Below are positions 30,960-42,906 of a stretch of DNA of 64,000 nt, piece after piece. The first letter of the stretch is position 1. Every line of letters starts with the position of its first letter. The stretch lies in assembly GCF_056712565.1 (NCBI RefSeq), contig NZ_CM160072.1. One strand, given 5' to 3'. The notes under the pieces are model-generated. The model searched no databases. It was not told where the DNA came from and worked only from the letters and a program-made list of their open reading frames with translations. The position numbers were made by a program, and so were the translations under genes.

Positions 30960-31042
30960 AGACCACGTCAAAATAAGAAGAGGGAAGACAACATTAGCAA
31001 GACTGTGTACATTTGTACACAATTGCAGAGAGAGGAAATGAC

Positions 31043-31579
31043 ATGCGTCGCGCTAACGATCCGCAACGGCGAGAAAAAATTATCCAGGCCACGCTGGAGG
31101 CGGTGAAACTTTACGGAATACATGCTGTTACACACCGCAAAATTGCTACCCTTGCCGGGGTGCCGTTGGGATCGATGACCTACTATTTTTCAGGAATTGA
31201 TGAGTTGTTGCTGGAGGCGTTCAGCCGTTTTACTGAGATCATGTCCCGGCAATATCAGGCATTTTTTAGCGATGTTAGTGATGCTCCAGGCGCATGCCAG
31301 GCTATCACCGATATGATCTACAGCTCACAGGTCGCAACGCCGGATAATATGGAGCTGATGTACCAGCTCTACGCGCTGGCTAGCCGAAAACCGCTCTTAA
31401 AAACGGTAATGCAAAACTGGATGCAGCGCAGTCAACAAACGCTCGAACAATGGTTTGAACCCGGAACCGCCCGCGCGCTTGATGCGTTTATTGAGGGAAT
31501 GACGCTGCATTTTGTCACCGACCGTAAGCCGCTATCACGCGAGGAGATTTTGAGGATGGTTGAGAGGATTGCTGGGTAG
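31043..31579 (+). CDS. rcdA: TetR-family transcriptional regulator
   Basis: 178 aa from [21 protein letters not shown]...; TetR N-terminal HTH. Confidence 0.85.
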
Positions 31580-31628
31580 TAGATAAATTTCAGGCAACAA
31601 AAAAACCATTTATGTAAACGGGTTAATG

Positions 31629-31662
31629 AAAACAATAAGTTAGATTAAAAACAATAAGTTAG
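31629..31662 (+). repeat. 15-bp direct repeat AAAACAATAAGTTAG x2 in the attL region
   Basis: Copies at 31629–31643 and 31648–31662, between the rcdA stop and the integrase stop; candidate att core or Int arm sites. Confidence 0.4.
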
Positions 31663-31683
31663 GTTGGTGGTCAGTGGTGGTTA

Positions 31684-32736
31684 TTACGGGGTAATGCCAA
31701 CCGCTGCCGCCACTTTGTCGCCACTTGGCAGCGTTGCCAGAGGATTGAAACGGAGCGCCGTTTCCAGATGATCCGGTGCCAGATGTGCGTAACGCATAGT
31801 CATTTTTATATCGTGGTGTCCGAGAATTTTTTGTAAGGCCAGAATGTTTCCACCCGACATCATGAAGTGCGCCGCAAACGTATGGCGCAGAACGTGTGTG
31901 AGTTGACCGCGAGGGAGCACGATAGACGTTTTTTCCATCACGGATAAAAATTGAAAATAGCAGTCTGTGAAGAAATTGAACCCATCAAGCGCCATGATCT
32001 CTTCGTAAAGCTCTTTACTGATAGGGATGCTTCTGTTTTTCTTCCCCTTCGTTCTGACAAAGGTAATTCGGTATTTGGTCACCTGTGAGCGGGTAAGATT
32101 TACGGCTTCACGCCAGCGTGCGCCTGTGCTTAAGCATATCTTAACTACCAGTGCCAGAATTGGGTCCTGACGTTTGCAATCAGCCAGCAATTCAACAATC
32201 TGCTCATGGGTAAGCCATGCCATCTCTTTTTCTGCGATGGTGAATTTTCGCATGTTCTCCAGTGGGTTCGGATACGACCATTCGCCCAGACGGGATAGTT
32301 CGCTAAAAACACTACTTAGATAGCTTTGCTCCAGGTTAATGGTGACCGGGCTTGCTCCTTTCTTCCATTTCTCGCTGAAGTAGATCTCGCCTGTCAGGCG
32401 TTTATCTCGATAATGGGCAAACATTTTAGAGGTGAGATCGGTTGCAAGAGGATTGCCCAGAGCGTCAACCATCAACAGCAATTTGTCATAGACATGCTGC
32501 CCAGCTGTCAGAGATTTACCATGTAGTTTGAACCATAGCTCAACCACGTCTTTCAGTGTTCGACGATCCACTGATTCACCCAGCCAGGGCTTTGCTTCGG
32601 TTTCTTCCATCGTGTGGCGCTCAAAAGCCAGTGCTTCGCCTTTGGTGGCGAATTGTTTACGCACACGACGCCCACTTCGTCCGGCGGGGTAACATTCGCA
32701 AAGCCATTTCCCAGTGGTGAGTTTTCGTACTGCCAT
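31684..32736 (-). CDS. int: phage integrase (tyrosine recombinase, P2-type)
   Basis: About 350 aa from MAVRKLTTGKW...; C-terminal catalytic region with HVLRHTFA and LGHHDIKMTMRYAHL (R, H-x-x-R, Y). Confidence 0.9.
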   Translation of the reverse strand: MAVRKLTTGKWLCECYPAGRSGRRVRKQFATKGEALAFERHTMEETEAKPWLGESVDRRTLKDVVELWFKLHGKSLTAGQHVYDKLLLMVDALGNPLATDLTSKMFAHYRDKRLTGEIYFSEKWKKGASPVTINLEQSYLSSVFSELSRLGEWSYPNPLENMRKFTIAEKEMAWLTHEQIVELLADCKRQDPILALVVKICLSTGARWREAVNLTRSQVTKYRITFVRTKGKKNRSIPISKELYEEIMALDGFNFFTDCYFQFLSVMEKTSIVLPRGQLTHVLRHTFAAHFMMSGGNILALQKILGHHDIKMTMRYAHLAPDHLETALRFNPLATLPSGDKVAAAVGITP

Positions 32737-32924
32737 AAAAAATGCCCTCCAGTAGAGAGCATTTTTACTGTATGTATAACCAGTGTCAATGTATGAAATC
32801 CTACGACCATACATCTCACTGAAGCCATAATGAAGTTGGCTATTCTTTTTGCTATGTGAGCATGTAACTTTTGCGGTTAACCTGCGGCTCATTTTTATTT
32901 TAGACGCAGATATAAAAGCAAAAG

Positions 32925-33116
32925 TTATCGTGAGTTTTTAGTACAGATTTTTTTGGATTTACTAATAGTTCCATCATTGCAAACAAATTTTCCATCGGAG
33001 GTACAGTGAGAGACACCTCCCTTTTTCCCAGAACAAGGATAATTTTTAGCATAGGTAGTTAGTGGGCTTAATAACAAAGAGCATGATAAAACCACAAAAA
33101 ATACTTTACCAAGCAT
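32925..33116 (-). CDS. small Cys-rich secreted peptide (moron candidate)
   Basis: 63 aa; signal peptide [23 protein letters not shown]; mature about 40 aa with 5 Cys; AT-rich; between int and repressor. Confidence 0.4.
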
Positions 33117-33131
33117 AGTTTCCTCCCGGTA

Positions 33132-33701
33132 TTATCTAACATATTTAACTGTTAAACTTATAATTTTACCAATTATTTCAATGTCTTCTATCTTACATTC
33201 GAAGGCTCTGTTTCCACCCTCGACGAAGATTCTTCCACCGGGTAAACGAGTAATGTCACGGATCGTTACTTCGCCATCAATACTTATTACCCATTTACCA
33301 TCACGTATGTCATCAAATTCTTTATCACAAATAAATTCAGAATTGTTATCTGTGATGACAAAAGGTTTTTTAAACGTAGAGGGTAGAAATCCCTTATCAA
33401 AAATATAAAAACCGTCTTCACGCAAGGCACCATCAGATAATACATATTTAGCAACTTCCATAGTATTTGTATTACCTGAAGTTTGCTTTGAACCATGTCC
33501 GGTTGTGAGCCAATTAAGCGAGGTGCCCGTTTCAAGGGCGCACTGGATTACCCATTCTGCTGGGAATGAGTCACGCATGTAGCGTGTGGCGAGTGTACTT
33601 TTAGAGATTCCTAAATGATCGCACAACGCCTGTCGAGTCTTGAATCCATAAGCTTCTACCATGCGCTCTATGGCGCCTCGTCCGCCTTTCTCCAAATTCA
33701 T
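33132..33701 (-). CDS. cI: 186 CI-like immunity repressor
   Basis: HTH region GRGAIERMVEAYGFKTRQALCDHLGISKSTLATRYMR; start taken at internal Met (MNLEKGG...) to leave a promoter region; adjacent and divergent to an Apl-like gene. Confidence 0.75.
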   Translation of the reverse strand: MNLEKGGRGAIERMVEAYGFKTRQALCDHLGISKSTLATRYMRDSFPAEWVIQCALETGTSLNWLTTGHGSKQTSGNTNTMEVAKYVLSDGALREDGFYIFDKGFLPSTFKKPFVITDNNSEFICDKEFDDIRDGKWVISIDGEVTIRDITRLPGGRIFVEGGNRAFECKIEDIEIIGKIISLTVKYVR

Positions 33702-33826
33702 GGTCACTCCAAGTGAACTTTTATCTTGACGATTTCGCCGTGCGATCGTATGTTTATGGTGTTCACAAAATACAAACGATCCGTATTCGTCCTGATTAAT
33801 CATCATTAAACGAGGAATGTTGCATC

Positions 33827-34048
33827 ATGAGACCTAACATTTCAATCACTCTTACCACGCCTCATGTGACTATTGAACGCTATAGCGAGCTGACAGGGCT
33901 ATCCATCGATACCATCAATGACATGTTGGCTGATGGACGCCTTATCCGTCACCGTCTGCGCAAAGATAAAAAACGCGAAAAAGTGATGATCAACATAGCA
34001 GCAATGACCGTTGATGCGCTTTCAGAATGCAATCTAAACCTTAATTAG
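33827..34048 (+). CDS. Apl/Cox-like excisionase-regulator
   Basis: 73 aa; small basic HTH protein ([11 protein letters not shown]) first in the rightward early operon. Confidence 0.55.
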
Positions 34049-34074
34049 TTCGATTCTGAAATACATCAGAGGCA

Positions 34075-34590
34075 TTGACCATGTTTGATTACCAAGTTTC
34101 CAAACATCCACATTTTGATGAAGCCTGTCGTGCATTTGCACTGCGCCACAATCTGGTGCAACTGGCAGAACGTGCAGGCATGAATGTGCAGATTCTGCGG
34201 AACAAGCTGAACCCAGCTCAGCCTCATTTATTAACCGCACCAGAAATCTGGCTGCTTACCGATCTGACTGAAGATTCAACGCTGGTAGATGGTTTTCTGG
34301 CACAGATTCATTGTCTGCCATGTGTACCGATTAATGAGGTGGCAAAAGAGAAACTGCCACATTACGTCATGAGTGCAACCGCAGAGATCGGGCGTGTTGC
34401 TGCAGGTGCGGTGTCTGGCGATGTAAAAACCTGTGCCGGTCGTCGTGATGCTATCAGCAGCATTAACTCTGTAACACGACTGATGGCGCTGGCTGCTGTT
34501 TCATTGCAGGCCCGTTTACAGGCTAATCCTGCGATGGCGAGTGCAGTTGATACCGTGACTGGCCTCGGTGCTTCATTCGGTTTGCTGTGA
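34075..34590 (+). CDS. CII-like phage regulatory protein
   Basis: 171 aa; position and size match 186 CII; HTH-like region [20 protein letters not shown]. Confidence 0.55.
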
Positions 34591-34597
34591 GGTGCTT

Positions 34598-34894
34598 ATG
34601 CTGACGAAAGAACCATCATTTGCATCGCTGCTGGTAAAACAAAGCCCGGCAATGCACTACGGTTACGGCTGGATCACGGGTGAGGATGGAAAACGCTGGC
34701 ATCCATGTCATTCACAAGATGAATTGCTGTCTGAATTGACCACGAGGAAACGGAGAAAGTCCAAATGTATGCGGCAGAAAGTGAAGTGGTTTATCAGTTT
34801 CGTTACAGAGGGGAGAGTTATTCAGTACCTGAAGATGATTTGCTCTGTTGCTATCCGTCATTGTCGGGAGATGGCAGTTACTTTTTCACGTTAA
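34598..34894 (+). CDS. hypothetical early protein (extent uncertain; overlaps next gene out of frame)
   Basis: Start MLTKEPSFAS with GAGGTG RBS; in-frame stop only at 34894, so the 3' part overlaps the next ORF. Confidence 0.3.
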   Translation: MLTKEPSFASLLVKQSPAMHYGYGWITGEDGKRWHPCHSQDELLSELTTRKRRKSKCMRQKVKWFISFVTEGRVIQYLKMICSVAIRHCREMAVTFSR

Positions 34895-34989
34895 AGGATG
34901 GGACGTTTTTACGGGGAGAGCAGGTTAAAGAGACGATACGAAAAAATGTATCTCCTCTTGAGCGTTACCGTAAGAACAAAGAACGATAG
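34765..34989 (+). CDS. hypothetical early protein
   Basis: 74 aa; GGAGA RBS 8 nt upstream of ATG. Confidence 0.45.
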   Translation: MYAAESEVVYQFRYRGESYSVPEDDLLCCYPSLSGDGSYFFTLKDGTFLRGEQVKETIRKNVSPLERYRKNKER

Positions 34990-35011
34990 CTGCGTTTGGG
35001 GAATATGAAGT

Positions 35012-35353
35012 ATGGCAATTAATGGCGCTGCAGCAACTGTTCCATTAAGCCCCGGTGAACGCCTGAATGGACTTAATCACATTGCGGAGTTAAGGGCGAA
35101 AGTTTTTGGCCTGAATATTGAGTCAGAGCTTGAGCAGTTTATTAAAGATATGCGTGATCCACGGGATATCAATAATGAACAAAATAAACGGGCACTGGCT
35201 GCCATATTCTTTATGGCAAAAATTCCAGCTGAACGTCATAGCATCAGCATTAATGAGCTGACCACTGACGAAAAGCGGGAGCTGATTAAAGCAATGAATC
35301 ATTTTCGTGCAGTGGTGAGCTTATTTCCCAGACGGCTAACCATGCCGAATTAA
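35012..35353 (+). CDS. hypothetical early protein
   Basis: 113 aa ORF in early operon. Confidence 0.5.
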   Translation: MAINGAAATVPLSPGERLNGLNHIAELRAKVFGLNIESELEQFIKDMRDPRDINNEQNKRALAAIFFMAKIPAERHSISINELTTDEKRELIKAMNHFRAVVSLFPRRLTMPN

Positions 35354-35420
35354 CCAACTAATGAAATTAATGGCGTAAACCCGCCGGGCATCCCTTTATC
35401 TAAATTCAGGAGAATTGATT

Positions 35421-35654
35421 ATGCGTAATATTGAAACCCTCTCGACCAAAACCGGACCGGATGACGCAGGGCTTAATATTTTACTGACAGAGGCTCGTCT
35501 GGAAGAACGCCGGGCAAGAGCAGAGGCAATGGCTGCCCGCCTTGATAGCCTTGCGTGCCATATCACATCCCGCCAGCTAAACCACGTCGAAGCGGCAGAA
35601 CTGCTGCGCGTGACTGCTGAAGCAATCCAGAACGAAGCGCAGGAGATCCACTAA
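35421..35654 (+). CDS. hypothetical early protein
   Basis: About 77 aa; coiled-coil-like; start at MRNIETL. Confidence 0.45.
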   Translation: MRNIETLSTKTGPDDAGLNILLTEARLEERRARAEAMAARLDSLACHITSRQLNHVEAAELLRVTAEAIQNEAQEIH

Positions 35655-35881
35655 TGGCTGATGCAATGGATCTCGTACAGCAGCGCGTTGAAGAAGAACG
35701 CCAGCGTCATATCCGTGCTGCCCGTGCCAAAACGCCGGGCGTGTCCCGCGTGCTTTGCATTGAGTGTGAAGCGCCAATTCCGCCAGCACGCCGCCGTGCC
35801 ATTCCAGGTGTGCAGCTTTGCATTACCTGTCAGGAAATCGCAGAGCTGAAAGGCAAACATTACAACGGAGGTGCTGTATGA
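35654..35881 (+). CDS. TraR/DksA-family C4 zinc-finger protein
   Basis: 75 aa; CIECEAPIP...CITCQ (CxxC-N17-CxxC). Confidence 0.7.
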   Translation: MADAMDLVQQRVEEERQRHIRAARAKTPGVSRVLCIECEAPIPPARRRAIPGVQLCITCQEIAELKGKHYNGGAV

Positions 35882-36735
35882 GCACCATCCTGAAATGGGC
35901 GGGAAATAAAACCGCCATTATGTCCGAACTGAAAAAGCATCTTCCTGCTGGCCCGCGACTGGTTGAACCTTTCGCGGGTTCCTGTGCAGTGATGATGGAG
36001 ACGGAGTACCCCAGCTATCTTGTTGCGGATATTAATCCTGATTTAATCAACCTCTATAAAAAGGTTGCTGCTGATTGTGAATCGTTTATATCTCGCGCCA
36101 GAGTTTTATTTGAGATCGCAAACAGGGAGGTGGCTTATTACAACATAAGGAAGGAGTTTAATTACTCAACTGAAATTACTGATTTCATGAAAGCGGTATA
36201 TTTCCTGTATCTCAATCGTCACGGTTACCGTGGTTTATGTCGCTATAACAAGAGCGGGCATTTCAACATTCCCTACGGCAATTATAAAAATCCGTATTTC
36301 CCTGAAAAAGAAATTCGCGCATTTGCAGAAAAAGCCCAGCGAGCAACGTTTATCTGCGCCAGCTTTGATGAAACGCTGGCGATGTTGAAGGCGGGGGATG
36401 TGGTGTATTGCGATCCACCGTATGACGGTACGTTTTCCGGCTATCACACTGACGGCTTCACTGAAGATGACCAGTATCACCTGGCATCTGTTCTTGAACA
36501 TCGGTCATCAGAAGGACATCCGGTCATTGTTTCTAACAGTGACACATCCCTGATCCGTTCGCTGTATCGCAATTTTACTCACCACTATATCAAGGTAAAA
36601 CGCATCATCGGTGTGGCAGCTGGCGAGGGTAAATCAGCAACAGAAATCATTGCTGTTTCCGGGCCGCGCTGCTGGGTGGGATTTGATTATTCGCGTGGCG
36701 TGGATAGTTCTGCCGTGTACGGAGTACGTGCATGA
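35878..36735 (+). CDS. Dam-like DNA adenine methyltransferase (orphan)
   Basis: 285 aa; LKWAGNK N-terminus, FAGS AdoMet motif, DPPY catalytic motif; start overlaps the TraR-like stop (ATGA). Confidence 0.9.
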
Positions 36736-39146
36736 GCCATGCCGATATGAACAACTGCTGCGGCTTTAACGAGGCTGCCGCAGCGTTCTCATGGAACAGC
36801 CCGAAAAAGGCCATTAACCCTTATCTGGACCCGGCGGAAGTTGCGCCGGTTTCTGCGCTTTCAAACCTGATCACTCTGTACGCTGCCGATAACGAGCAGG
36901 AACAGTTGCGCCGCGAGGCACTGAGTGATCAGGTCTGGGAGCGTTATTTTTTTAATGAATCACGTGATCCTGTCCAGCACGAAATGGAGCAGGATAAGCT
37001 CATTAGCCGGGCAAAGCTGGCGCATGAGCAGCAGCGTTTTAATCCGGATATGGTCATTCTGGCGGACGTCAACGCCCAGCCTTCCCATATCAGCAAGCCG
37101 CTGATGCAACGTATTGAATACTTCAGCAGCCTGGGCAGGCCAAAGGCTTATTCCCGCTATTTACGTGAGACGATTAAGCCATGTCTGGAACGACTGGAGC
37201 ATGTACGCGACAGCCAGCTATCTGCATCTTTTCGTTTTATGGCAAGCCATGTAGGGCTGGACGGCCTGCTGATTCTGCCTGAAATGAGTCAGGATCAGGT
37301 GAAACGCCTGTCTACCCTTGTCGCTGCGCATATGAGCATGTGCCTTGATGCAGCTTGTGGTGATTTGTATGCCACCGATGACGTTAAGCCAGAAGAAATC
37401 CGCAAGACATGGGAAAAGGTGGCAGCGGAAACCCTGCGTCTGGATGTCATCCCGCCTGCGTTTGAGCAACTCCGTCGGAAAAGAAACCGCCGTAAACCCG
37501 TGCCCTATGAACTCATTCCGGGTTCGCTGGCGCGTATGTTGTGCGCCGACTGGTGGTACCGGAAATTATGGAAAATGCGTTGCGAATGGCGGGAAGAGCA
37601 GTTGCGTGCTGTCTGCCTGGTCAGCAAAAAAGCATCTCCCTATGTCAGCTATGAAGCCGTGATGCATAAACGTGAGCAGCGCCGCAAGTCACTGGAGTTT
37701 TTCCGTTCTCATGAACTGGTGAACGAAGAGGGCGACACGCTGGATATGGAAGACGTGGTAAACGCCAGCAGCAGCAACCCGGCGCACCGCCGCAATGAGA
37801 TGATGGCCTGTGTTAAAGGTCTGGAGCTTATCGCGGAAATGCGCGGTGACTGCGCCGTTTTCTACACCATTACCTGTCCGTCACGTTTCCATTCCACGCT
37901 CAATAACGGCAGACCAAACCCAACCTGGACAAATGCGACGGTAAGACAAAGCAGCGATTATCTGGTCGGCATGTTTGCTGCATTTCGTAAGGCGATGCAC
38001 AAAGCCGGGTTGCGCTGGTATGGCGTGCGGGTGGCTGAGCCGCATCATGACGGTACAGTTCACTGGCACCTGTTGTGTTTTATGCGCAAAAAAGACCGCC
38101 GCGCCATTACTGCATTGTTGCGTAAGTTTGCCATCCGTGAAGACCGCGAGGAACTGGGTAATAACACTGGTCCACGCTTTAAATCTGAGCTGATAAACCC
38201 GCGCAAAGGAACGCCGACAAGCTACATCGCGAAATACATCAGTAAGAACATTGACGGGCGTGGTCTGGCTGGCGAGATCAGCAAGGAAACGGGTAAATCC
38301 CTGCGTGATAACGCTGAATACGTTAATGCCTGGGCGTCTCTGCATCGTGTTCAGCAATTCCGCTTCTTTGGTATTCCAGGGCGTCAGGCTTACCGTGAAC
38401 TGCGGTTGTTGGCTGGTCAGGCGGCAAGGCAGCAGGGTGACAAAAAAGCAGGTGCGCCGGTACTGGATAACCCGCGCCTTGATGCCATCCTGGCTGCTGC
38501 TGATGCTGGCTGTTTTGCCACCTACATTATGAGGCAGGGCGGCGTGCTGGTTCCTCGCAAATATCACTTGATCAGAACCGCTTATGAAATCAATGAAGAG
38601 CCGACCGCCTATGGCGATCACGGTATTCGTATTTATGGCATCTGGTCACCCATTGCAGAAGGCAAGATCTGCACTCATGCAGTGAAGTGGAAAATGGTTC
38701 GTAAAGCCGTTGACGTTCAGGAGGCGGCAGCCGACCAGGGCGCTTGCGCCCCTTGGACTCGTGGCAATAACTGTCCCCTTGCTGAAAATTTGAACCAACA
38801 AGGGAAAGACAAATCAGCTGATGGGGATACCAGGACGGACATTACCCGCATGGATGACAAGGAGTTGCACGATTACCTGCACAGTATGAGCAAAAAAGAG
38901 CGCCGGGAACTGGCTGCAAGGTTACGCCTGGTGAAACCGAAACGGCGTAAAGACTACAAACAGCGAATTATAGACCATCAGCGACAGCAGCTCGTCTATG
39001 AACTGAAGTCCAGAGGATTTAATGGCAGCGAGAAAGAGGTCGATTTACTCCTTCGCGGCGGCAGTATTCCGTCAGGAGCAGGCCTGCGTATCTTCTATCG
39101 GAACCAGCGTTTGCAGGAAGATGATAAGTGGCGAAACCTGTATTAA
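36732..39146 (+). CDS. A: replication initiation endonuclease (P2 gpA / 186 A family)
   Basis: 804 aa; HWHLLCF motif and tyrosine-rich active region (YIAKYISK). Confidence 0.88.
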
Positions 39147-39238
39147 TTACGCGGGTTAACAATTCGTGCTCTTAATAATACCAGGCATATCAGGCTAATG
39201 AACGTAAAAAAACGTTTTACATCAGTAAGATTATTATA

Positions 39239-39258
39239 TACTGTAAATATAAACAGTG
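39239..39258 (+). promoter_or_regulatory. LexA box (SOS operator)
   Basis: TACTGTAAATATAAACAGTG matches CTGT-N8-ACAG; 40 bp upstream of a small ORF plus dinI-like gene. Confidence 0.6.
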
Positions 39259-39299
39259 GTTATGTATACAGTATTGCTTGTGGTGTCATAGGAGGAAAG

Positions 39300-39488
39300 A
39301 TGCAGGACTATTTTTTGGAGTCTTTGAAGCTCCAGCGCATTGATTTTTTTCTTAAGCTTGTAGCGGCTAGTGAGTGTAGTGATGAAGAGAAGGGGCTGGC
39401 TTTGCAGTGGGTTTCTGAACTGACAGATGAACTCATGGCAAAAATCAGAACCCACGAATACAACCGCTCAATGGATGTCATCAGCTGA
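39300..39488 (+). CDS. small SOS-operon protein (possible Tum-like antirepressor fragment)
   Basis: 62 aa; GGAGG RBS; directly downstream of the LexA box and upstream of the dinI-like gene. Confidence 0.4.
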   Translation: MQDYFLESLKLQRIDFFLKLVAASECSDEEKGLALQWVSELTDELMAKIRTHEYNRSMDVIS

Positions 39489-39498
39489 GGTGACCTTT

Positions 39499-39732
39499 AT
39501 GCGCATTGAAATAATGATCGATAAAGAGCAGAAGATTAGCCAGTCTACCCTGGACGCCCTTGAATCCGAGCTTTACCGCAATCTGCGCCCCCTGTATCCC
39601 AAAACGGTAATTCGCATCCGCAAAGGTAGCTCTAACGGTGTGGAACTGACCGGACTGCAACTGGACGAAGAAAGAAAACAAGTGATGAAGATTATGCAGA
39701 AGGTGTGGGAAGACGACAGCTGGCTGCATTAA
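39499..39732 (+). CDS. DinI-family protein
   Basis: 77 aa; MRIEIMIDKEQ...VWEDDSWLH resembles DinI (MRIEVTI...); GAGGTGA RBS. Confidence 0.75.
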   Translation: MRIEIMIDKEQKISQSTLDALESELYRNLRPLYPKTVIRIRKGSSNGVELTGLQLDEERKQVMKIMQKVWEDDSWLH

Positions 39733-39891
39733 GAAAAGTTGCTGGCGTCTGAACTTGGTTCTGGCGTCAGCAAGGTTGAACAACGAGTACAGTGAGGCGT
39801 TAGGTGTGGCGTTTATTTGATGAGTGAACGCCCGTTCTGCGATAGGTTCGGAGATTAAGGTTGAAACTACGGGCAAAATACCATCTTTTTC

Positions 39892-40317
39892 CTACTTAAT
39901 TGAGTCCAGTAACAAGTTACAGTTACTCTCATTGTAGAGAGAACGAGCAATTAGTGTTACCTGCTTTCCATTCATTCCCGGCTTATCCCATAACACAGCT
40001 TCTTGCGACGCCACAAATTCAGCATAATCAATTATGCGTTGTTCGTGATCTGGTTCCTCATAGCCAAAGTATGAGAGCGCATCGTTGTAAGCGTGGTAAG
40101 CTGCTTTCTGTAATATCTTGATATCGGCTGTAGGTACTTGCTCCGTGTAGCTAGGATCTAATTGTGTGCTACTGCCATAGAATGCACATGAAAGGTAAGA
40201 TATTGATTTCTGTTGAGCTTTAGTTCCTTTCTCATAGTTTTTAGCTGTTACCGCCTGAACAGGGACGCTAACAAAGCTTGCAACCAGAATTAAAATTAAT
40301 ACGTAAAAGCTTTTCAT
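39892..40317 (-). CDS. secreted protein of unknown function (cargo)
   Basis: 141 aa; signal peptide MKSFYVLILILVASFVSVPVQA; lower-GC segment; opposite strand to flanking phage genes. Confidence 0.6.
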   Translation of the reverse strand: MKSFYVLILILVASFVSVPVQAVTAKNYEKGTKAQQKSISYLSCAFYGSSTQLDPSYTEQVPTADIKILQKAAYHAYNDALSYFGYEEPDHEQRIIDYAEFVASQEAVLWDKPGMNGKQVTLIARSLYNESNCNLLLDSIK

Positions 40318-40587
40318 TTTGACCTCAGCCGAAACGTTAGAGAGACTATCGAAATTTGTAAAACCCGTGGCGATTCAGTTTGAGATCCTCCCCCTTACAT
40401 GATTTTTAATCAAATATATGCTTTTGTAAGCATACCTGTTAACCGAATTATTTATTTTTAGAGATCTTCCGACATACTGATTATGCCCGCTGAGGAGTTC
40501 ACCTTGCGTAAAGTCCGATTCGCTTTACTCGTCTGTGCATGTCTATGCTGCATGAGATTGCATGATCGTTTGAGGATCGTTTTTGCT

Positions 40588-40617
40588 AAGGCCCGCCAGA
40601 ACTGGCGGGCTTTTGCG
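40588..40617 (+). terminator. rho-independent terminator
   Basis: GCCCGCCAG-aact-GGCGGGC followed by TTTTG. Confidence 0.5.
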
Positions 40618-40659
40618 TAGATCATGCTCCTGCATGAAAACCACTACATAAAGCGGGCA

Positions 40660-40678
40660 GGCGTGGCGGGGATACGAG
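40660..40678. other. cos-like site (P2/186-type cohesive end sequence)
   Basis: GGCGTGGCGGGGATACGAG; first 13 nt identical to the 186 cohesive end (GGCGTGGCGGGGAAAGCAT) as recalled from the literature. Confidence 0.45.
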
Positions 40679-40692
40679 CGCGCGCTTGCACC

Positions 40693-40721
40693 TTGATATT
40701 CACGGTTTGGTTAAGTATTGT
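40693..40721 (+). promoter_or_regulatory. putative sigma70 promoter for the protease operon
   Basis: TTGATA-N17-TATTGT about 40 bp upstream of the protease start. Confidence 0.3.
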
Positions 40722-40761
40722 CTTAGTCAGAGTCCATAACATATTACAGAATGGAGTTGTT

Positions 40762-41409
40762 ATGATTGGTCCTGAATATGTCGTAGTTGTTGGCGTGCTT
40801 AATGCAGGTTTGGTTAGTTTTTTAGGAACAGGTTTTTTTATTTCTAAGGATAAAATAATTACTTCCCGCCATGTTATTAATGGGTTTTCTTCTAACTTAG
40901 TTATTTCTCCATCTAATATAAATAACTTTAATAGTTATCAGGATACAAGTGTTGATAAATTTCAATGTATTGGAGTTGATGTTATTGATGAAGATCCAAT
41001 AAAAGACTTATGTGTGTTAAAAATTAAAAATGCACCTGTTTATGAACCTTGCCTAAAAATTGCTACTCTTGACGATGTTAATGTCGGTGAAGATGTGGGT
41101 ATTTTAGGTTTCCCACATTGTAATGAAAATAGAAAAGTATTGACATTTCAAACGGCAAAAATAGGTGCAAAAGTTTTACTTTCAAGCAGTAATATTCAAT
41201 CTAAACATGCCGTTATAAATATCCAAACCAGACCTGGTCAATCGGGATCGATTGTATTTAATTTAAAAAATGACTCGGTAATAGGCGTCTTGGTTGGCGC
41301 TTATGCAAATAATTCTGGAGGTTCTGTTTTGGTTGGAGGTATTAATCCAGCTGAACTACATCAGACAACTTATGCGGTTTCTGCAGAATATGTTAAGGAT
41401 ATGTTATGA
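40762..41409 (+). CDS. trypsin-like (S1/chymotrypsin-fold) serine protease, stand-alone domain
   Basis: 216 aa from MIGPEYVVVVG... (GGAG RBS); candidate triad His in GTGFFISKDKIITSRHV, Asp in DLCVLKI, Ser in RPGQSGSIVF; about 30% GC. Confidence 0.75.
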   Translation: MIGPEYVVVVGVLNAGLVSFLGTGFFISKDKIITSRHVINGFSSNLVISPSNINNFNSYQDTSVDKFQCIGVDVIDEDPIKDLCVLKIKNAPVYEPCLKIATLDDVNVGEDVGILGFPHCNENRKVLTFQTAKIGAKVLLSSSNIQSKHAVINIQTRPGQSGSIVFNLKNDSVIGVLVGAYANNSGGSVLVGGINPAELHQTTYAVSAEYVKDML

Positions 41410-41852
41410 TTGCTATACCAAATGAAGATGCTGAGTCTTGGTTGTCCACTTTAAAAACGTATCAATCTTCATCTGTCAGGAATTTTCTCGAAAATGGCGA
41501 TGAAGAAAAGGCTCTTGAGCTATGGCTAACTGCATCTGGCCCAAGTTCAGTTGCTCAATTTGGCGGTGATAATTCAAAAATGCCGGGAAGAAAAGCGTTT
41601 GTTGAGCAGTTTAAATTAGAGTTTAAGGCTTTTGTATGTGGAGGTGATAAATATGCAGAGGAGAGGGAATGTTTAGGAGCACTGACTGGTGATGTTAAAA
41701 CATACTTTGTAGGGGTGATCTCTTCGGCAATTGCGGGTTCTTTGGGGGCAACAGCAACATTTATTGCTCCAGCTGTAGTAATTATGTTGATAGCTGTCTC
41801 AAAAATGGGAATTAATGCTTGGTGTTCATTAGAGACAACGACAGAATCTTAG
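41406..41852 (+). CDS. small tail-anchored membrane protein, partner of the protease
   Basis: 148 aa; start overlaps protease stop (ATGA); C-terminal Gly/Ala-rich hydrophobic helix YFVGVISSAIAGSLGATATFIAPAVVIMLIAVS; AT-rich. Confidence 0.6.
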   Translation: MIAIPNEDAESWLSTLKTYQSSSVRNFLENGDEEKALELWLTASGPSSVAQFGGDNSKMPGRKAFVEQFKLEFKAFVCGGDKYAEERECLGALTGDVKTYFVGVISSAIAGSLGATATFIAPAVVIMLIAVSKMGINAWCSLETTTES

Positions 41853-41855
41853 GAA

Positions 41856-41880
41856 AACGCCCTTTTAGGGCGTTTTTTTA
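41856..41880 (+). terminator. rho-independent terminator after the protease operon
   Basis: AACGCCCT-ttta-AGGGCGTT followed by TTTTTTT; overlaps the portal gene stop on the other strand. Confidence 0.6.
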
Positions 41881-42906
41881 TAAATCATAATGCTGAAATC
41901 GGATAGTTTTCTCACCTAACCATTCATTAACTTCCATTATTCTTTTTTGGAGTGGAATTAGTTCATTTCTAACAAAAACCTTACTCGCCTTCTCCACATC
42001 CCCAAACCCTCCAACATTATTAGGCATTATCCCCATCATTTGTGGCGGCACACGATGCGCCGCCATCATGTCGTCCCGGCTCACGTTCTTGATATTCAGG
42101 AACTCATCCTTCGCCGCCACTTCTGACAACGGGATAATCTGAAGCCCGTCCTTTTTACCGTTAGGCGAGTACATAAACAGGTTACGGAAGTTACCAGGAC
42201 CTTTGGCACTTTTCATCGCGTTGCGGAGATTGTTCACATCCTCCTGATTCTGCGCGGCATCGGTCATATACATGATGAAGCCTGCATGGCTGCCGTTGAT
42301 GTAATACTTGCGGCGGAACAGCGTGGCGGACTTATTGAGCAGGGCTGACGGAATGGCAGAAAGATAGCCGGGCAGGCCGTAGATCTCCTGGTTGATGTCC
42401 GGTTCCATCAGATGAAAAATGCTGCCTTTCGTGAACTGATACGGCTGGGTTGTCATACCGTATTGCACAAACCAGTAGGTATCCAGGTCTAACCCGCGTC
42501 GGGTGTATTTTGCCAGCGCAGGATCAAGGGCGATAACTTCACCGAATCGGTTCGTGCGTTTCTCCAGGTAGGCGTTACCAAATACCAGATAGTCCTGCAC
42601 AAAACGCGAAAAAGCCTGCTGGCTGAGCAGCGGATGAGGGATATAGGTACTGGTCAGAATGTTGCACTTTACTGCAATCGGAGAACTGTGATGCACGGCG
42701 GCGCGGAAGGTGCGCGCCAGTCCGTCAAAGCTGACGGGCGGCTCATACCAGCGATCTGTCTGTACGCATTCCACATAGTCCAGCAGTTCACGGCGGTCCA
42801 GAACAGGAACGGGATCACCGAAGCTGAATGCTTCGGCTGAAGTCTGGCTTTTATGCTGGAGCTGGTTCGTCGACGCAGCGCGGTTCTTCTTACTCTTTCC
42901 CATCAA
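41878..42906 (-). CDS. Q: portal protein (P2 gpQ-like)
   Basis: 342 aa; size and position (upstream terminase on the same strand) match P2 Q. Confidence 0.88.
   Translation of the reverse strand: MMGKSKKNRAASTNQLQHKSQTSAEAFSFGDPVPVLDRRELLDYVECVQTDRWYEPPVSFDGLARTFRAAVHHSSPIAVKCNILTSTYIPHPLLSQQAFSRFVQDYLVFGNAYLEKRTNRFGEVIALDPALAKYTRRGLDLDTYWFVQYGMTTQPYQFTKGSIFHLMEPDINQEIYGLPGYLSAIPSALLNKSATLFRRKYYINGSHAGFIMYMTDAAQNQEDVNNLRNAMKSAKGPGNFRNLFMYSPNGKKDGLQIIPLSEVAAKDEFLNIKNVSRDDMMAAHRVPPQMMGIMPNNVGGFGDVEKASKVFVRNELIPLQKRIMEVNEWLGEKTIRFQHYDL

What the first reader, a model, noticed from the sequence alone, without database searches (positions are those of the whole stretch)
35654..36735. Orphan Dam-like methyltransferase translationally coupled to a TraR/DksA zinc-finger gene in the early operon
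A GATC-type adenine methyltransferase (DPPY motif) with no adjacent restriction gene is expressed from the phage early operon, and its start overlaps the stop of a TraR-like protein. It may protect against host restriction, modulate host gene expression or time replication; TraR-like proteins bind RNA polymerase.
Basis: partly seen in the sequence, partly recalled or inferred. Interest (0 to 1): 0.4.

Follow-up and report, generated by a model that had tools for sequence, protein, structure and literature searches.

The report
Known prophage Dam methylase, ordinary operon
This is the long-known, routinely annotated DNA adenine (Dam, GATC) methylase of a Fels-2/186-type P2-like prophage of E. 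coli, lying between a TraR-like RNA-polymerase-binding protein gene and the phage replication gene; the finding is correct but ordinary.

Summary
Window 35654-35881 encodes a 75-aa TraR/DksA C4 zinc-finger protein. Window 35878-36735 encodes a 285-aa Dam-family N6-adenine methyltransferase with DPPY at residues 179-182. The two genes overlap by ATGA. No restriction gene is nearby.

It is not new. The same DUF2732-TraR-Dam-gpA block is annotated in 1243 of 5426 complete E. coli genomes and in 56 phage records, including Salmonella phage RE-2010. A member of the same 90%-identity protein cluster is named "retron EC67 DNA adenine methylase", a name that goes back to a 1990 paper. The P2 homologue of the TraR-like protein has been shown to bind RNA polymerase.

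The stop/start overlap is the normal packing of this operon. The stop of dam also overlaps the start of replication gene A.

New evidence on function: P2-like phages without dam (P2, 186, PSP3, YenM_31.17) have 13-32% of the expected GATC sites. Phages with dam, including this prophage (78%), are near expectation. The enzyme therefore most likely tops up the host's limiting Dam on replicating phage DNA. That would protect unmethylated GATC sites from MutH or from methylation-sensitive restriction.

Host reprogramming and replication timing have no sequence support.

The parts
33726..33754 (+). candidate early lytic promoter (pR-like) in the cI/apl-like intergenic switch region
   Evidence: Consensus scan found TTGACG-17-TATGTT. 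The position matches pR of phage 186 between cI and apl. Inferred, not shown.
35421..35654 (+). DUF2732 gene (homologue of 186 CP79/80 and P2 orf80), first gene of the tightly packed four-gene block
   Evidence: Pfam DUF2732, E=4e-29. RefSeq annotates this start in an identical prophage. Its stop overlaps the TraR start as TAATG.
35654..35881 (+). TraR/DksA-family C4 zinc-finger protein, 75 aa
   Evidence: It has D3 and D6 of the DxxDxA tip motif (A8 is replaced by V) and four Cys. It is 46% identical to P2 Orf82, 68% to the 186 homologue and 100% to the RE-2010 protein.
35867..35871 (+). GGAGG Shine-Dalgarno sequence for dam, inside the end of the TraR-like gene
   Evidence: Read from the sequence. 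Conserved as GGAGG or GGGGG in most of 74 related loci.
35878..36735 (+). dam: solitary Dam-family (D12 class, alpha) N6-adenine DNA methyltransferase, 285 aa
   Evidence: Motifs: LKWAGNK at 5-11, EPFAGS at 30-35, ADIN at 50-53, DPPY at 179-182. The EcoDam GATC-contact residues K9, Y119, L122, R124, P134 and Y138 are conserved; N120 is R.
35878..35881 (+). ATGA overlap of the TraR stop and the dam start
   Evidence: Present in 74 of 74 related loci.
36412..36423 (+). codons of the catalytic DPPY motif (GATCCACCGTAT), which themselves contain a GATC site
36732..36735 (+). ATGA overlap of the dam stop and the gpA start
   Evidence: The dam stop overlaps an ATG or GTG start in 68 of 74 related loci. 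In 186, translation to the end of the gene upstream of A is annotated as needed for A translation.
36732..39146 (+). gene A: rolling-circle replication initiator (nickase), 804 aa
   Evidence: Pfam Phage_GPA, E=2e-127. 31-34% identical to the A proteins of P2 and 186.
38740..38775 (+). predicted origin nick region inside gene A (…GCGCCCCTTGGACTCGTGGCAATAACTGT…)
   Evidence: Located by DNA and protein alignment to the annotated P2 and 186 nick sites. The nearest GATC is at 38666, so there is no GATC cluster here.

Best explanation
This gene is the phage-borne Dam (GATC, N6-methyladenine) methyltransferase typical of Fels-2/RE-2010/retron-Ec67-type P2-like prophages.

It lies in the early lytic operon. 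That operon runs apl-like, cII, fil, DUF5347, DUF2732, TraR-like, dam, A. The dam gene is packed stop-to-start between a TraR-like RNA-polymerase-binding protein and the rolling-circle initiator gpA.

Proposed mechanism, with what is shown and what is inferred:
1. On infection or induction the operon is transcribed. This is inferred from 186.
2. Dam is made together with gpA, because their reading frames overlap. The overlap is shown; coupling is inferred.
3. The enzyme methylates GATC. This is inferred from about 50% identity to EcoDam with conserved contact residues, and from the 1990 description of the Ec67 Dam.
4. Rolling-circle replication produces DNA faster than the scarce host Dam can methylate it. 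The phage enzyme keeps the roughly 100 phage GATC sites methylated.
5. Progeny DNA is therefore not nicked by MutH or cut by methylation-sensitive GATC-specific nucleases in the current or the next host. Steps 4 and 5 are inferred, and are supported by the comparative GATC data.

The TraR-like protein acts separately, shifting host transcription as P2 Orf82 and lambda Orf73 do.
For: Identity of the enzyme:
- Pfam D12 class, E=2e-75.
- TIGR00571 'dam', 319 bits against a cutoff of 115.
- E=2e-72 to solved EcoDam. K9, Y119, L122, R124, P134 and Y138 are conserved and DPPY is present. The roles of these residues are taken from PMC4417163.
- A member of the same 90%-identity cluster is named 'retron EC67 DNA adenine methylase'.

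Operon context:
- Synteny with 186 and P2.
- No terminator-like hairpin ahead of the block.
- ATGA overlaps are conserved.

Action on the phage's own DNA, from GATC observed/expected ratios:
- Markov expectation: 0.20 in P2, 0.13 in 186 and 0.22 in PSP3, all without dam. 0.70 in this prophage, 0.79 in RE-2010 and 0.78 in the host flank.
- 213 IMG/VR loci: dam-carrying clade median 0.80 (range 0.69-0.97, n=70). P2 clade 0.23 (n=75). 186 clade 0.31 (n=68).
- Eleven enterobacterial genomes from eight genera: six with a Dam homologue score 0.56-0.92 and five without score 0.13-0.51, with no overlap.
- Synonymous-codon shuffle null: dam-less phages 0.13-0.32 (z from -9 to -11). This prophage 0.78, three other dam-carrying phages 0.98-1.04, host 1.03.

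Published background: GATC counter-selection in enterophages, and its link to MutH and under-methylation, are established (McClelland 1984 and Deschavanne & Radman 1991, as cited and discussed in PMC5014478).

Recurrence: Dam homologues lie immediately upstream of gene A in other genera too, namely ESSI-2, Kp4861-1 and SI7.
Against: - Nothing here measures expression, activity or specificity.
- The GATC contrast is a correlation across few independent lineages and could reflect ancestry. It could also run the other way: GATC-rich phages need a Dam.
- Exceptions exist. ESSI-2 has a Dam homologue but only 0.55-0.56 of expected GATC. Aeromonas phage A051 has no detectable methyltransferase yet scores 0.81. 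Two close relatives that have lost dam (L058, L087) still score 0.82-0.85, although these could be recent losses.
- N120 of EcoDam is replaced by R.
- The data cannot tell MutH avoidance from restriction avoidance.
Confidence: 0.6

Rival explanations
1. Anti-restriction or host-range function only. The phage Dam pre-methylates virion DNA so that it survives methylation-sensitive GATC-cutting restriction systems (MboI/DpnII/Sau3AI type) in the next host. MutH plays no role.
For: The methylase is solitary and sits in a lytic operon. The same slot in relatives holds other DNA-modification genes: a C5-methyltransferase, a DpdA-like transglycosylase and PAPS-reductase-like genes. Phage Dam enzymes are described as anti-restriction functions in 10.1101/2020.06.22.160242. 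GATC depletion in dam-less relatives fits selection by any GATC-targeting nuclease.
Against: All usual hosts (E. coli, Salmonella, Klebsiella) already have Dam, so DNA is largely methylated anyway. GATC methylation creates sensitivity to DpnI-type methyl-dependent enzymes. Sequence alone cannot separate this from the MutH version.
Confidence: 0.2
2. Regulatory role. Extra Dam changes gene expression or timing, either of the host (lysogenic conversion, phase-variable loci, mutation rate) or of phage promoters and the replication origin.
For: Dam methylation controls promoters and prophage behaviour in enterobacteria (PMC7380047). Two GATC sites (33744, 33778) lie in the 125-bp cI/apl switch region. 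Dam overproduction has cellular effects, including triggering retron Sen2.
Against: In 186 the equivalent operon is repressed by CI in lysogens, so the gene should be silent there. No consensus promoter lies directly in front of dam on its strand. No GATC cluster lies at the predicted origin. GATC sites are spread at near-random density over the whole prophage. Host Dam already methylates the same sites.
Confidence: 0.1
3. Largely dispensable passenger. The gene is one of several interchangeable fillers of a variable slot. It is kept mainly because translation through the slot gene is needed to express gene A, and methylation itself gives little benefit.
For: The genes in this slot of 186 are annotated 'not essential', and translation to the end of orf84 is annotated as needed for A translation. 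The slot content is highly variable, and it is empty in 19 of the 186-like loci and in two Fels-2-like loci.
Against: The protein is conserved with intact catalytic motifs at 70-99% identity in 75 loci, and is present in about 23% of complete E. coli genomes. Dam homologues recur next to gene A in several genera. The GATC contrast suggests the activity matters.
Confidence: 0.1

Closest known systems
Retron-Ec67 / retronphage phiR67 Dam methylase (Hsu, Inouye & Inouye 1990, PNAS 87:9454; element shown to be a 186-related prophage by Dodd & Egan 1996, Virology 219:115)
   Same: A 285-aa solitary Dam on a 186-related prophage of E. coli. A protein in the same 90%-identity cluster carries this name. 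The Klebsiella copy of the same gene block has been compared with Ec67 in PMC7826664.
   Different: This prophage has no retron. The position between the replication region and the portal gene holds a PDC-M35-type gene pair instead. The 1990 paper could not be read here, so direct identity to the original sequence was not measured.
E. coli chromosomal Dam (EcoDam, PDB 2g1p/4gol)
   Same: Same fold family and motif order. About half of the aligned residues are identical. The catalytic DPPY, the AdoMet motifs and six of seven DNA-contact residues are conserved.
   Different: It does not reach the NCBIfam equivalog cutoff for host Dam (285 against 441 bits). N120 is R. The last ~22 residues (264-285) lie outside the aligned region. 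It is phage-borne and in a lytic operon rather than the damX-dam-rpe context.
Dam gene of Felsduovirus phages (Salmonella phage RE-2010, Klebsiella KP12 and 4LV2017, Escherichia phage Cartapus)
   Same: 96-97% DNA identity over the whole DUF2732-TraR-dam-A block, with the same gene order.
   Different: Only the immunity region and the accessory genes outside this block differ.
P2 Orf82, lambda Orf73 and F-plasmid TraR (RNA-polymerase secondary-channel binders)
   Same: The 75-aa protein has the C4 zinc finger and D3/D6 of the DxxDxA motif. It is 46% identical to P2 Orf82 and lies at the same operon position. P2 Orf82 binds RNA polymerase and inhibits rrnB P1 (PMC9239242).
   Different: A8 of the motif is V, as it is missing in P2 Orf82, where this was suggested to lower activity. 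No activity data exist for this protein.
Phage 186 orf84-to-A translational coupling
   Same: The gene directly upstream of A ends in an overlap with the A start. In 186 the record says translation to the end of orf84 is needed for A translation.
   Different: In 186 the upstream gene is PAPS-reductase-like, not dam. Coupling has not been tested for dam-A.

Membership tests
Dam family / D12-class (alpha) N6-adenine DNA methyltransferases | Profile match above the curated family threshold | tested here: met
   PF02086: 254 bits against a cutoff of 22. TIGR00571 'dam': 319 bits against a cutoff of 115.
Dam family / D12-class (alpha) N6-adenine DNA methyltransferases | AdoMet-binding motif I (FxGxG-like) near the N-terminus, followed later by the catalytic motif IV (D/N)PP(Y/F) | tested here: met
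   EPFAGS at 30-35, ADIN at 50-53, DPPY at 179-182.
Dam family / D12-class (alpha) N6-adenine DNA methyltransferases | Residues that read GATC in EcoDam (K9, Y119, N120, L122, R124, P134, Y138) | tested here: met
   Six of seven are identical (K6, Y117, L120, R122, P132, Y136). N120 is R118. Residue roles are from PMC4417163.
Dam family / D12-class (alpha) N6-adenine DNA methyltransferases | Methylation of the adenine in GATC | not testable with these tools
   Needs DpnI/MboI digestion or SMRT/nanopore sequencing of DNA from a dam-minus host. Reported for the Ec67 enzyme according to the title of Hsu et al. 1990, which could not be read here.
Chromosomal Dam orthologue (NCBIfam NF008152 equivalog) | Score above the equivalog cutoff | tested here: not met
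   285 bits against a cutoff of 441. It is a phage paralogue, not the host dam.
Solitary (orphan) methyltransferase | No cognate restriction endonuclease gene adjacent | tested here: met
   Neighbours are DUF2732, the TraR-like gene, gpA, cII, fil and DUF5347. No endonuclease is annotated in the related complete phage RE-2010.
TraR/DksA C4 zinc-finger RNA-polymerase-binding proteins | Profile match, four zinc-binding Cys, and the N-terminal DxxDxA tip motif | tested here: met
   PF01258: 43.5 bits against 24.9. TIGR02419: 65.8 against 59.7. CIEC and CITC are present. D3 and D6 are present, and A8 is V.
TraR/DksA C4 zinc-finger RNA-polymerase-binding proteins | Binding to the RNA polymerase secondary channel and inhibition of rRNA promoters | not testable with these tools
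   Shown for P2 Orf82, which is 46% identical (PMC9239242). Not tested for this protein.
Translationally coupled gene pair | Overlapping stop and start codons | tested here: met
   ATGA at 35878-35881 and at 36732-36735. Conserved in 74/74 and 68/74 related loci respectively.
Translationally coupled gene pair | Downstream translation depends on upstream translation | not testable with these tools
   dam has its own strong GGAGG Shine-Dalgarno sequence, so independent initiation is possible. Dependence is annotated only for 186 orf84-to-A.
186/Fels-2-type P2-like prophage (Peduoviridae, Felsduovirus-like) early operon | Gene order cI / apl-cII-fil-…-DUF2732-TraR-(slot)-A-tum/DinI, then portal and terminase | tested here: met
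   96-97% DNA identity to Felsduovirus records.

The most novel reading that the evidence does not exclude
In Peduoviridae, the position just upstream of replication gene A may be a swap-in site for alternative DNA-modification modules: Dam, a C5-methyltransferase, a DpdA-like transglycosylase and PAPS-reductase-like enzymes. Each would be translationally tied to the replication initiator so that modification keeps pace with replication. On this reading, gaining the Dam module is what freed the Fels-2-type lineage, this prophage included, from the strong GATC purging seen in P2 and 186.
Probability: 0.4. Interest if true: 0.4.

Novelty: already known. Interest (0 to 1): 0.15.

Why it matters
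It matters little as a discovery. The gene, its family, its phage context and its TraR-like neighbour are all described and are routinely annotated in about a quarter of E. coli genomes.

Two modest points of value come from this follow-up. First, there is a clean comparative signal: P2-like phages with their own Dam keep a normal GATC density, while dam-less relatives have purged 70-87% of their expected sites. This points to the phage's own DNA as the enzyme's substrate of consequence, and it gives a simple genetic test using a dam-deleted phage in mutH+/- or DpnII+ hosts. Second, the slot upstream of gene A holds interchangeable DNA-modification genes, which may interest people studying phage counter-defence.

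Tried and rejected
1. I tried to link the gene to M.EcoMIV. This is the prophage 'Dam homolog' of E. coli EC958 that RT-PCR showed to be untranscribed in the lysogen (PMC4659465).
   - The three EC958 stretches I inspected hold a P88-like prophage without a methyltransferase, and the end of a Mu-like prophage (Mor and gp16 genes), probably Phi2.
   - M.EcoMIV itself was not located. That expression result cannot be transferred to this gene.
2. Replication-timing idea. I located the origin nick region by homology (about 38754-38760). No GATC cluster lies there.
3. I looked for a terminator between the DUF5347 and DUF2732 genes, equivalent to 186 tR1. None was found by the scan, and folding was unremarkable at z=-0.26.
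4. An Rfam scan of 31000-42500 found nothing.
5. The promoter scan found no more sites than shuffled sequence does, and no + strand site in front of dam.
6. Hsu et al. 1990 (PMC55184) is not held. The claim that the Ec67 enzyme is active rests on the paper's title and on my memory.
7. The papers on Salmonella prophages (PMC7380047, PMC12455584) and on Serratia phages (PMC7556043) contain nothing on this enzyme.
8. The first synonymous-shuffle script timed out and a second failed on file loading. The rerun is.
9. Structure prediction and the large protein database searches were not run. About 50% identity to a solved Dam makes them unnecessary.

Full report
WHAT IS THERE

Window 1-31.6 kb is E. 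coli chromosome, 100% identical to phylogroup B2 strains such as SF-468 and ATCC 11775. From the integrase gene (31684-32892, minus strand) to beyond the window end lies a P2-like prophage inserted next to rcdA.

Its early region reads as follows on the + strand, apart from the repressor:
- CI repressor (33132-33701, minus strand)
- apl-like gene (33827-34048)
- cII (34075-34590)
- fil
- DUF5347 gene (35012-35353)
- DUF2732 gene (35421-35654)
- TraR-like gene (35654-35881)
- dam (35878-36735)
- replication gene A (36732-39146)
- a small ORF and a DinI-like gene

This is the gene order of phage 186 and of Felsduovirus phages such as Salmonella phage RE-2010. The 1.4 kb around the finding is 96-97% identical to 45 phage records. 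It is present in 1243 of 5426 complete E. coli genomes, where it is annotated 'DUF2732 | TraR/DksA family transcriptional regulator | DNA adenine methylase | replication endonuclease'.

CHECKING THE OBSERVATION

All the descriptive statements hold.

The methyltransferase:
- It matches Pfam D12 class (E=2e-75) and NCBIfam 'dam' (319 bits against a cutoff of 115).
- It matches solved E. coli Dam at E=2e-72, with roughly half the aligned residues identical.
- It has EPFAGS, ADIN and DPPY in the alpha-class order.
- It keeps K9, Y119, L122, R124, P134 and Y138 of EcoDam. These residues read GATC, intercalate or contact its first base pair, according to PMC4417163. Only N120 differs; it is R.
- It falls below the equivalog cutoff for the host dam (285 against 441 bits). 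It is therefore a phage paralogue.

The upstream gene:
- It is a 75-aa TraR/DksA zinc-finger protein.
- It has four Cys and the D3/D6 acidic tip.

The junctions and neighbours:
- The TraR stop and the dam start overlap as ATGA, preceded by GGAGG.
- No restriction gene is near.

WHY IT IS ORDINARY

The overlap is not a special TraR-Dam link. All four genes of the block are joined by overlaps (TAATG, ATGA, ATGA), which is common in phage operons.

P2 and 186 keep the TraR-like gene but carry different genes where dam lies here. P2 has DUF5405. Phage 186 has a DnaQ-like exonuclease, DUF5405 and a PAPS-reductase-like gene.

Across 240 IMG/VR loci, the slot between the TraR-like gene and A holds any of the following:
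- Dam
- DUF5405
- a DnaQ-like exonuclease
- DUF3850/ASCH
- a PAPS-reductase-like gene
- a C5-cytosine methyltransferase
- a DpdA-like (queuine tRNA-ribosyltransferase-like) protein
- nothing

The more conserved relationship is with gene A. The dam stop overlaps the next start in 68 of 74 loci. The 186 record states that translation to the end of the gene upstream of A is needed for A translation.

The enzyme family is old news. A member of the same 90%-identity cluster (4038 members) is named 'retron EC67 DNA adenine methylase'. [quoted passage not shown] Dodd & Egan 1996 later showed that this element is a 186-related prophage. Both are cited in PMC8989520 and PMC7826664. I could not read the 1990 paper.

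For the TraR-like protein, Gopalkrishnan et al. 2022 (PMC9239242) showed that P2 Orf82 binds RNA polymerase at the DksA site and inhibits rrnB P1. Orf82 is 46% identical to this protein and lies at the same operon position. They also note that Orf82 is expressed from the early promoter.

WHAT THE DAM MOST LIKELY DOES

I looked for a signature of the enzyme's substrate in the phage genomes themselves.

Counts against a Markov expectation:

| Genome | own dam | GATC sites | observed/expected |
|---|---|---|---|
| P2 | no | 25 | 0.20 |
| 186 | no | 14 | 0.13 |
| PSP3 | no | 25 | 0.22 |
| this prophage | yes | 95 in 32.4 kb | 0.70 |
| RE-2010 | yes | 116 | 0.79 |
| host flank | - | - | 0.78 |

In IMG/VR loci centred on gene A:

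| Clade | n | median o/e | range |
|---|---|---|---|
| dam-carrying (Fels-2-like) | 70 | 0.80 | 0.69-0.97 |
| P2 | 75 | 0.23 | 0.10-0.41 |
| 186 | 68 | 0.31 | 0.15-0.69 |

These loci amount to only three clades, so I added whole genomes from further genera:
- With a Dam homologue: SI7 0.92, Kp4861-1 0.90, Kp4875-2 0.89, ESSI-2 0.56.
- Without one: Yersinia YenM_31.17 0.33, Xuanwuvirus 0.51.

Among the enterobacterial phages the two groups do not overlap (six against five). By my own arithmetic the exact rank-sum p is about 0.004, uncorrected for phylogeny.

A stricter null shuffles synonymous codons within genes and so preserves proteins and codon usage:

| Genome | o/e | z |
|---|---|---|
| P2 | 0.21 | -10.6 |
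| 186 | 0.13 | -10.5 |
| PSP3 | 0.20 | -9.2 |
| YenM_31.17 | 0.32 | -9.6 |
| this prophage | 0.78 | -2.9 |
| RE-2010 | 0.82 | -2.6 |
| SI7 | 0.98 | -0.2 |
| Kp4861-1 | 0.99 | -0.2 |
| Kp4875-2 | 1.04 | 0.6 |
| host flank | 1.03 | 0.5 |

So dam-less relatives have purged GATC at the DNA level, and dam carriers have not.

GATC counter-selection in enterophages has long been attributed to MutH acting on under-methylated phage DNA (McClelland 1984; Deschavanne & Radman 1991; discussed in PMC5014478). The simplest reading is that the phage Dam is made together with the replication initiator and keeps the burst of new phage DNA methylated, which removes that cost. I give this 0.6.

It cannot be separated here from protection against methylation-sensitive GATC-cutting restriction systems (0.2).

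CAVEATS

- ESSI-2 has a Dam homologue but is still depleted (0.55).
- An Aeromonas phage with no detectable methyltransferase is not depleted (0.81).
- Vibrio and Mannheimia phages are intermediate.
- Two close relatives that have lost dam (L058, L087) keep a normal GATC density, possibly because the losses are recent.
- In L086, dam has been replaced by a DpdA-like gene, leaving the first codons (MSTILK). Its GATC ratio is 0.52.
- Several P2-type loci carry a different, distant D12-class methyltransferase downstream of A yet remain GATC-depleted (0.15-0.28). It presumably has another specificity or is a recent gain.

OTHER IDEAS

A regulatory or lysogenic-conversion role is unlikely:
- By analogy with 186, the operon is CI-repressed in lysogens.
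- No promoter-like site precedes dam on its strand.
- Host Dam already methylates GATC.

The predicted origin (about 38754-38760) has no GATC cluster, so a SeqA/oriC-like timing device is not supported.

Bobonis et al. (10.1101/2020.06.22.160242) showed that extra Dam can trigger the retron-Sen2 toxin by methylating msDNA. A phage Dam could therefore also be a liability that some retron defences sense. This is context, not evidence about this locus.

VERDICT

Novelty: already known. Interest: low (0.15). The GATC contrast and the variable DNA-modification slot are the only points that go slightly beyond routine annotation.

Noticed in passing
window 40624-41852 (+), between the DinI-like gene and the portal gene: A two-gene accessory cassette, a trypsin-like S1 peptidase of 261 aa plus a 148-aa partner, matches the PADLOC candidate defence system PDC-M35A/B (E=8e-94 and 4e-58). 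It lies at the P2-like hotspot where other relatives carry retron Ec67, an AIPR gene or old/tin.
   Followed up: partly
L183:4624-5451, L086:7046-7876 and 11 other loci; slot between the TraR-like gene and gene A: In 13 related prophages the slot holds a 276-aa protein matching PHROG 887 'queuine tRNA-ribosyltransferase' (E=3e-94). It is DpdA-like and hints at 7-deazaguanine DNA modification. Other relatives carry a C5-cytosine methyltransferase (L082) or PAPS-reductase-like genes there. The slot looks like an exchange site for DNA-modification genes.
   Followed up: partly
L086:6840-7876: dam has been replaced by the DpdA-like gene, but the first dam codons (…CMSTILK…) remain as a remnant ORF. 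This locus has an intermediate GATC observed/expected ratio of 0.52.
   Followed up: partly
L096:8682-9566, L102, L103, L116, L127, L136, L234 (downstream of gene A): Some P2- and 186-type prophages carry a distant D12-class methyltransferase of 294-333 aa with DPPY in the accessory region after gene A. The P2-type loci stay GATC-depleted (0.15-0.28), so the enzyme probably does not methylate GATC or is a recent gain. The single 186-type locus (L234) is at 0.52.
   Followed up: partly
window 33744 and 33778 (cI / apl-like intergenic region 33702-33826): Two GATC sites lie within the 125-bp lysis-lysogeny switch region. One lies between the hexamers of the candidate pR promoter. About 0.4 sites would be expected at the prophage's density. 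Possible Dam sensitivity of the switch was not examined.
   Followed up: no
window 32925-33116 (-), between int and cI: A 63-aa ORF has a signal-peptide-like N-terminus and six Cys ([16 protein letters not shown]…). It is annotated 'hypothetical protein' in RefSeq. Its position suggests a lysogen-expressed small secreted protein.
   Followed up: no
L256 (Cronobacter phage ESSI-2) and L258 (Aeromonas phage A051): These two are exceptions to the dam/GATC pattern. ESSI-2 has a Dam homologue (47% identity) directly upstream of gene A but a GATC observed/expected ratio of only 0.55. A051 has no detectable methyltransferase yet scores 0.81.
   Followed up: no
window 36412-36415: The codons for the catalytic DPPY motif (GAT CCA CCG TAT) themselves create a GATC site, so the enzyme's own active-site coding sequence is one of its substrates.
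   Followed up: no
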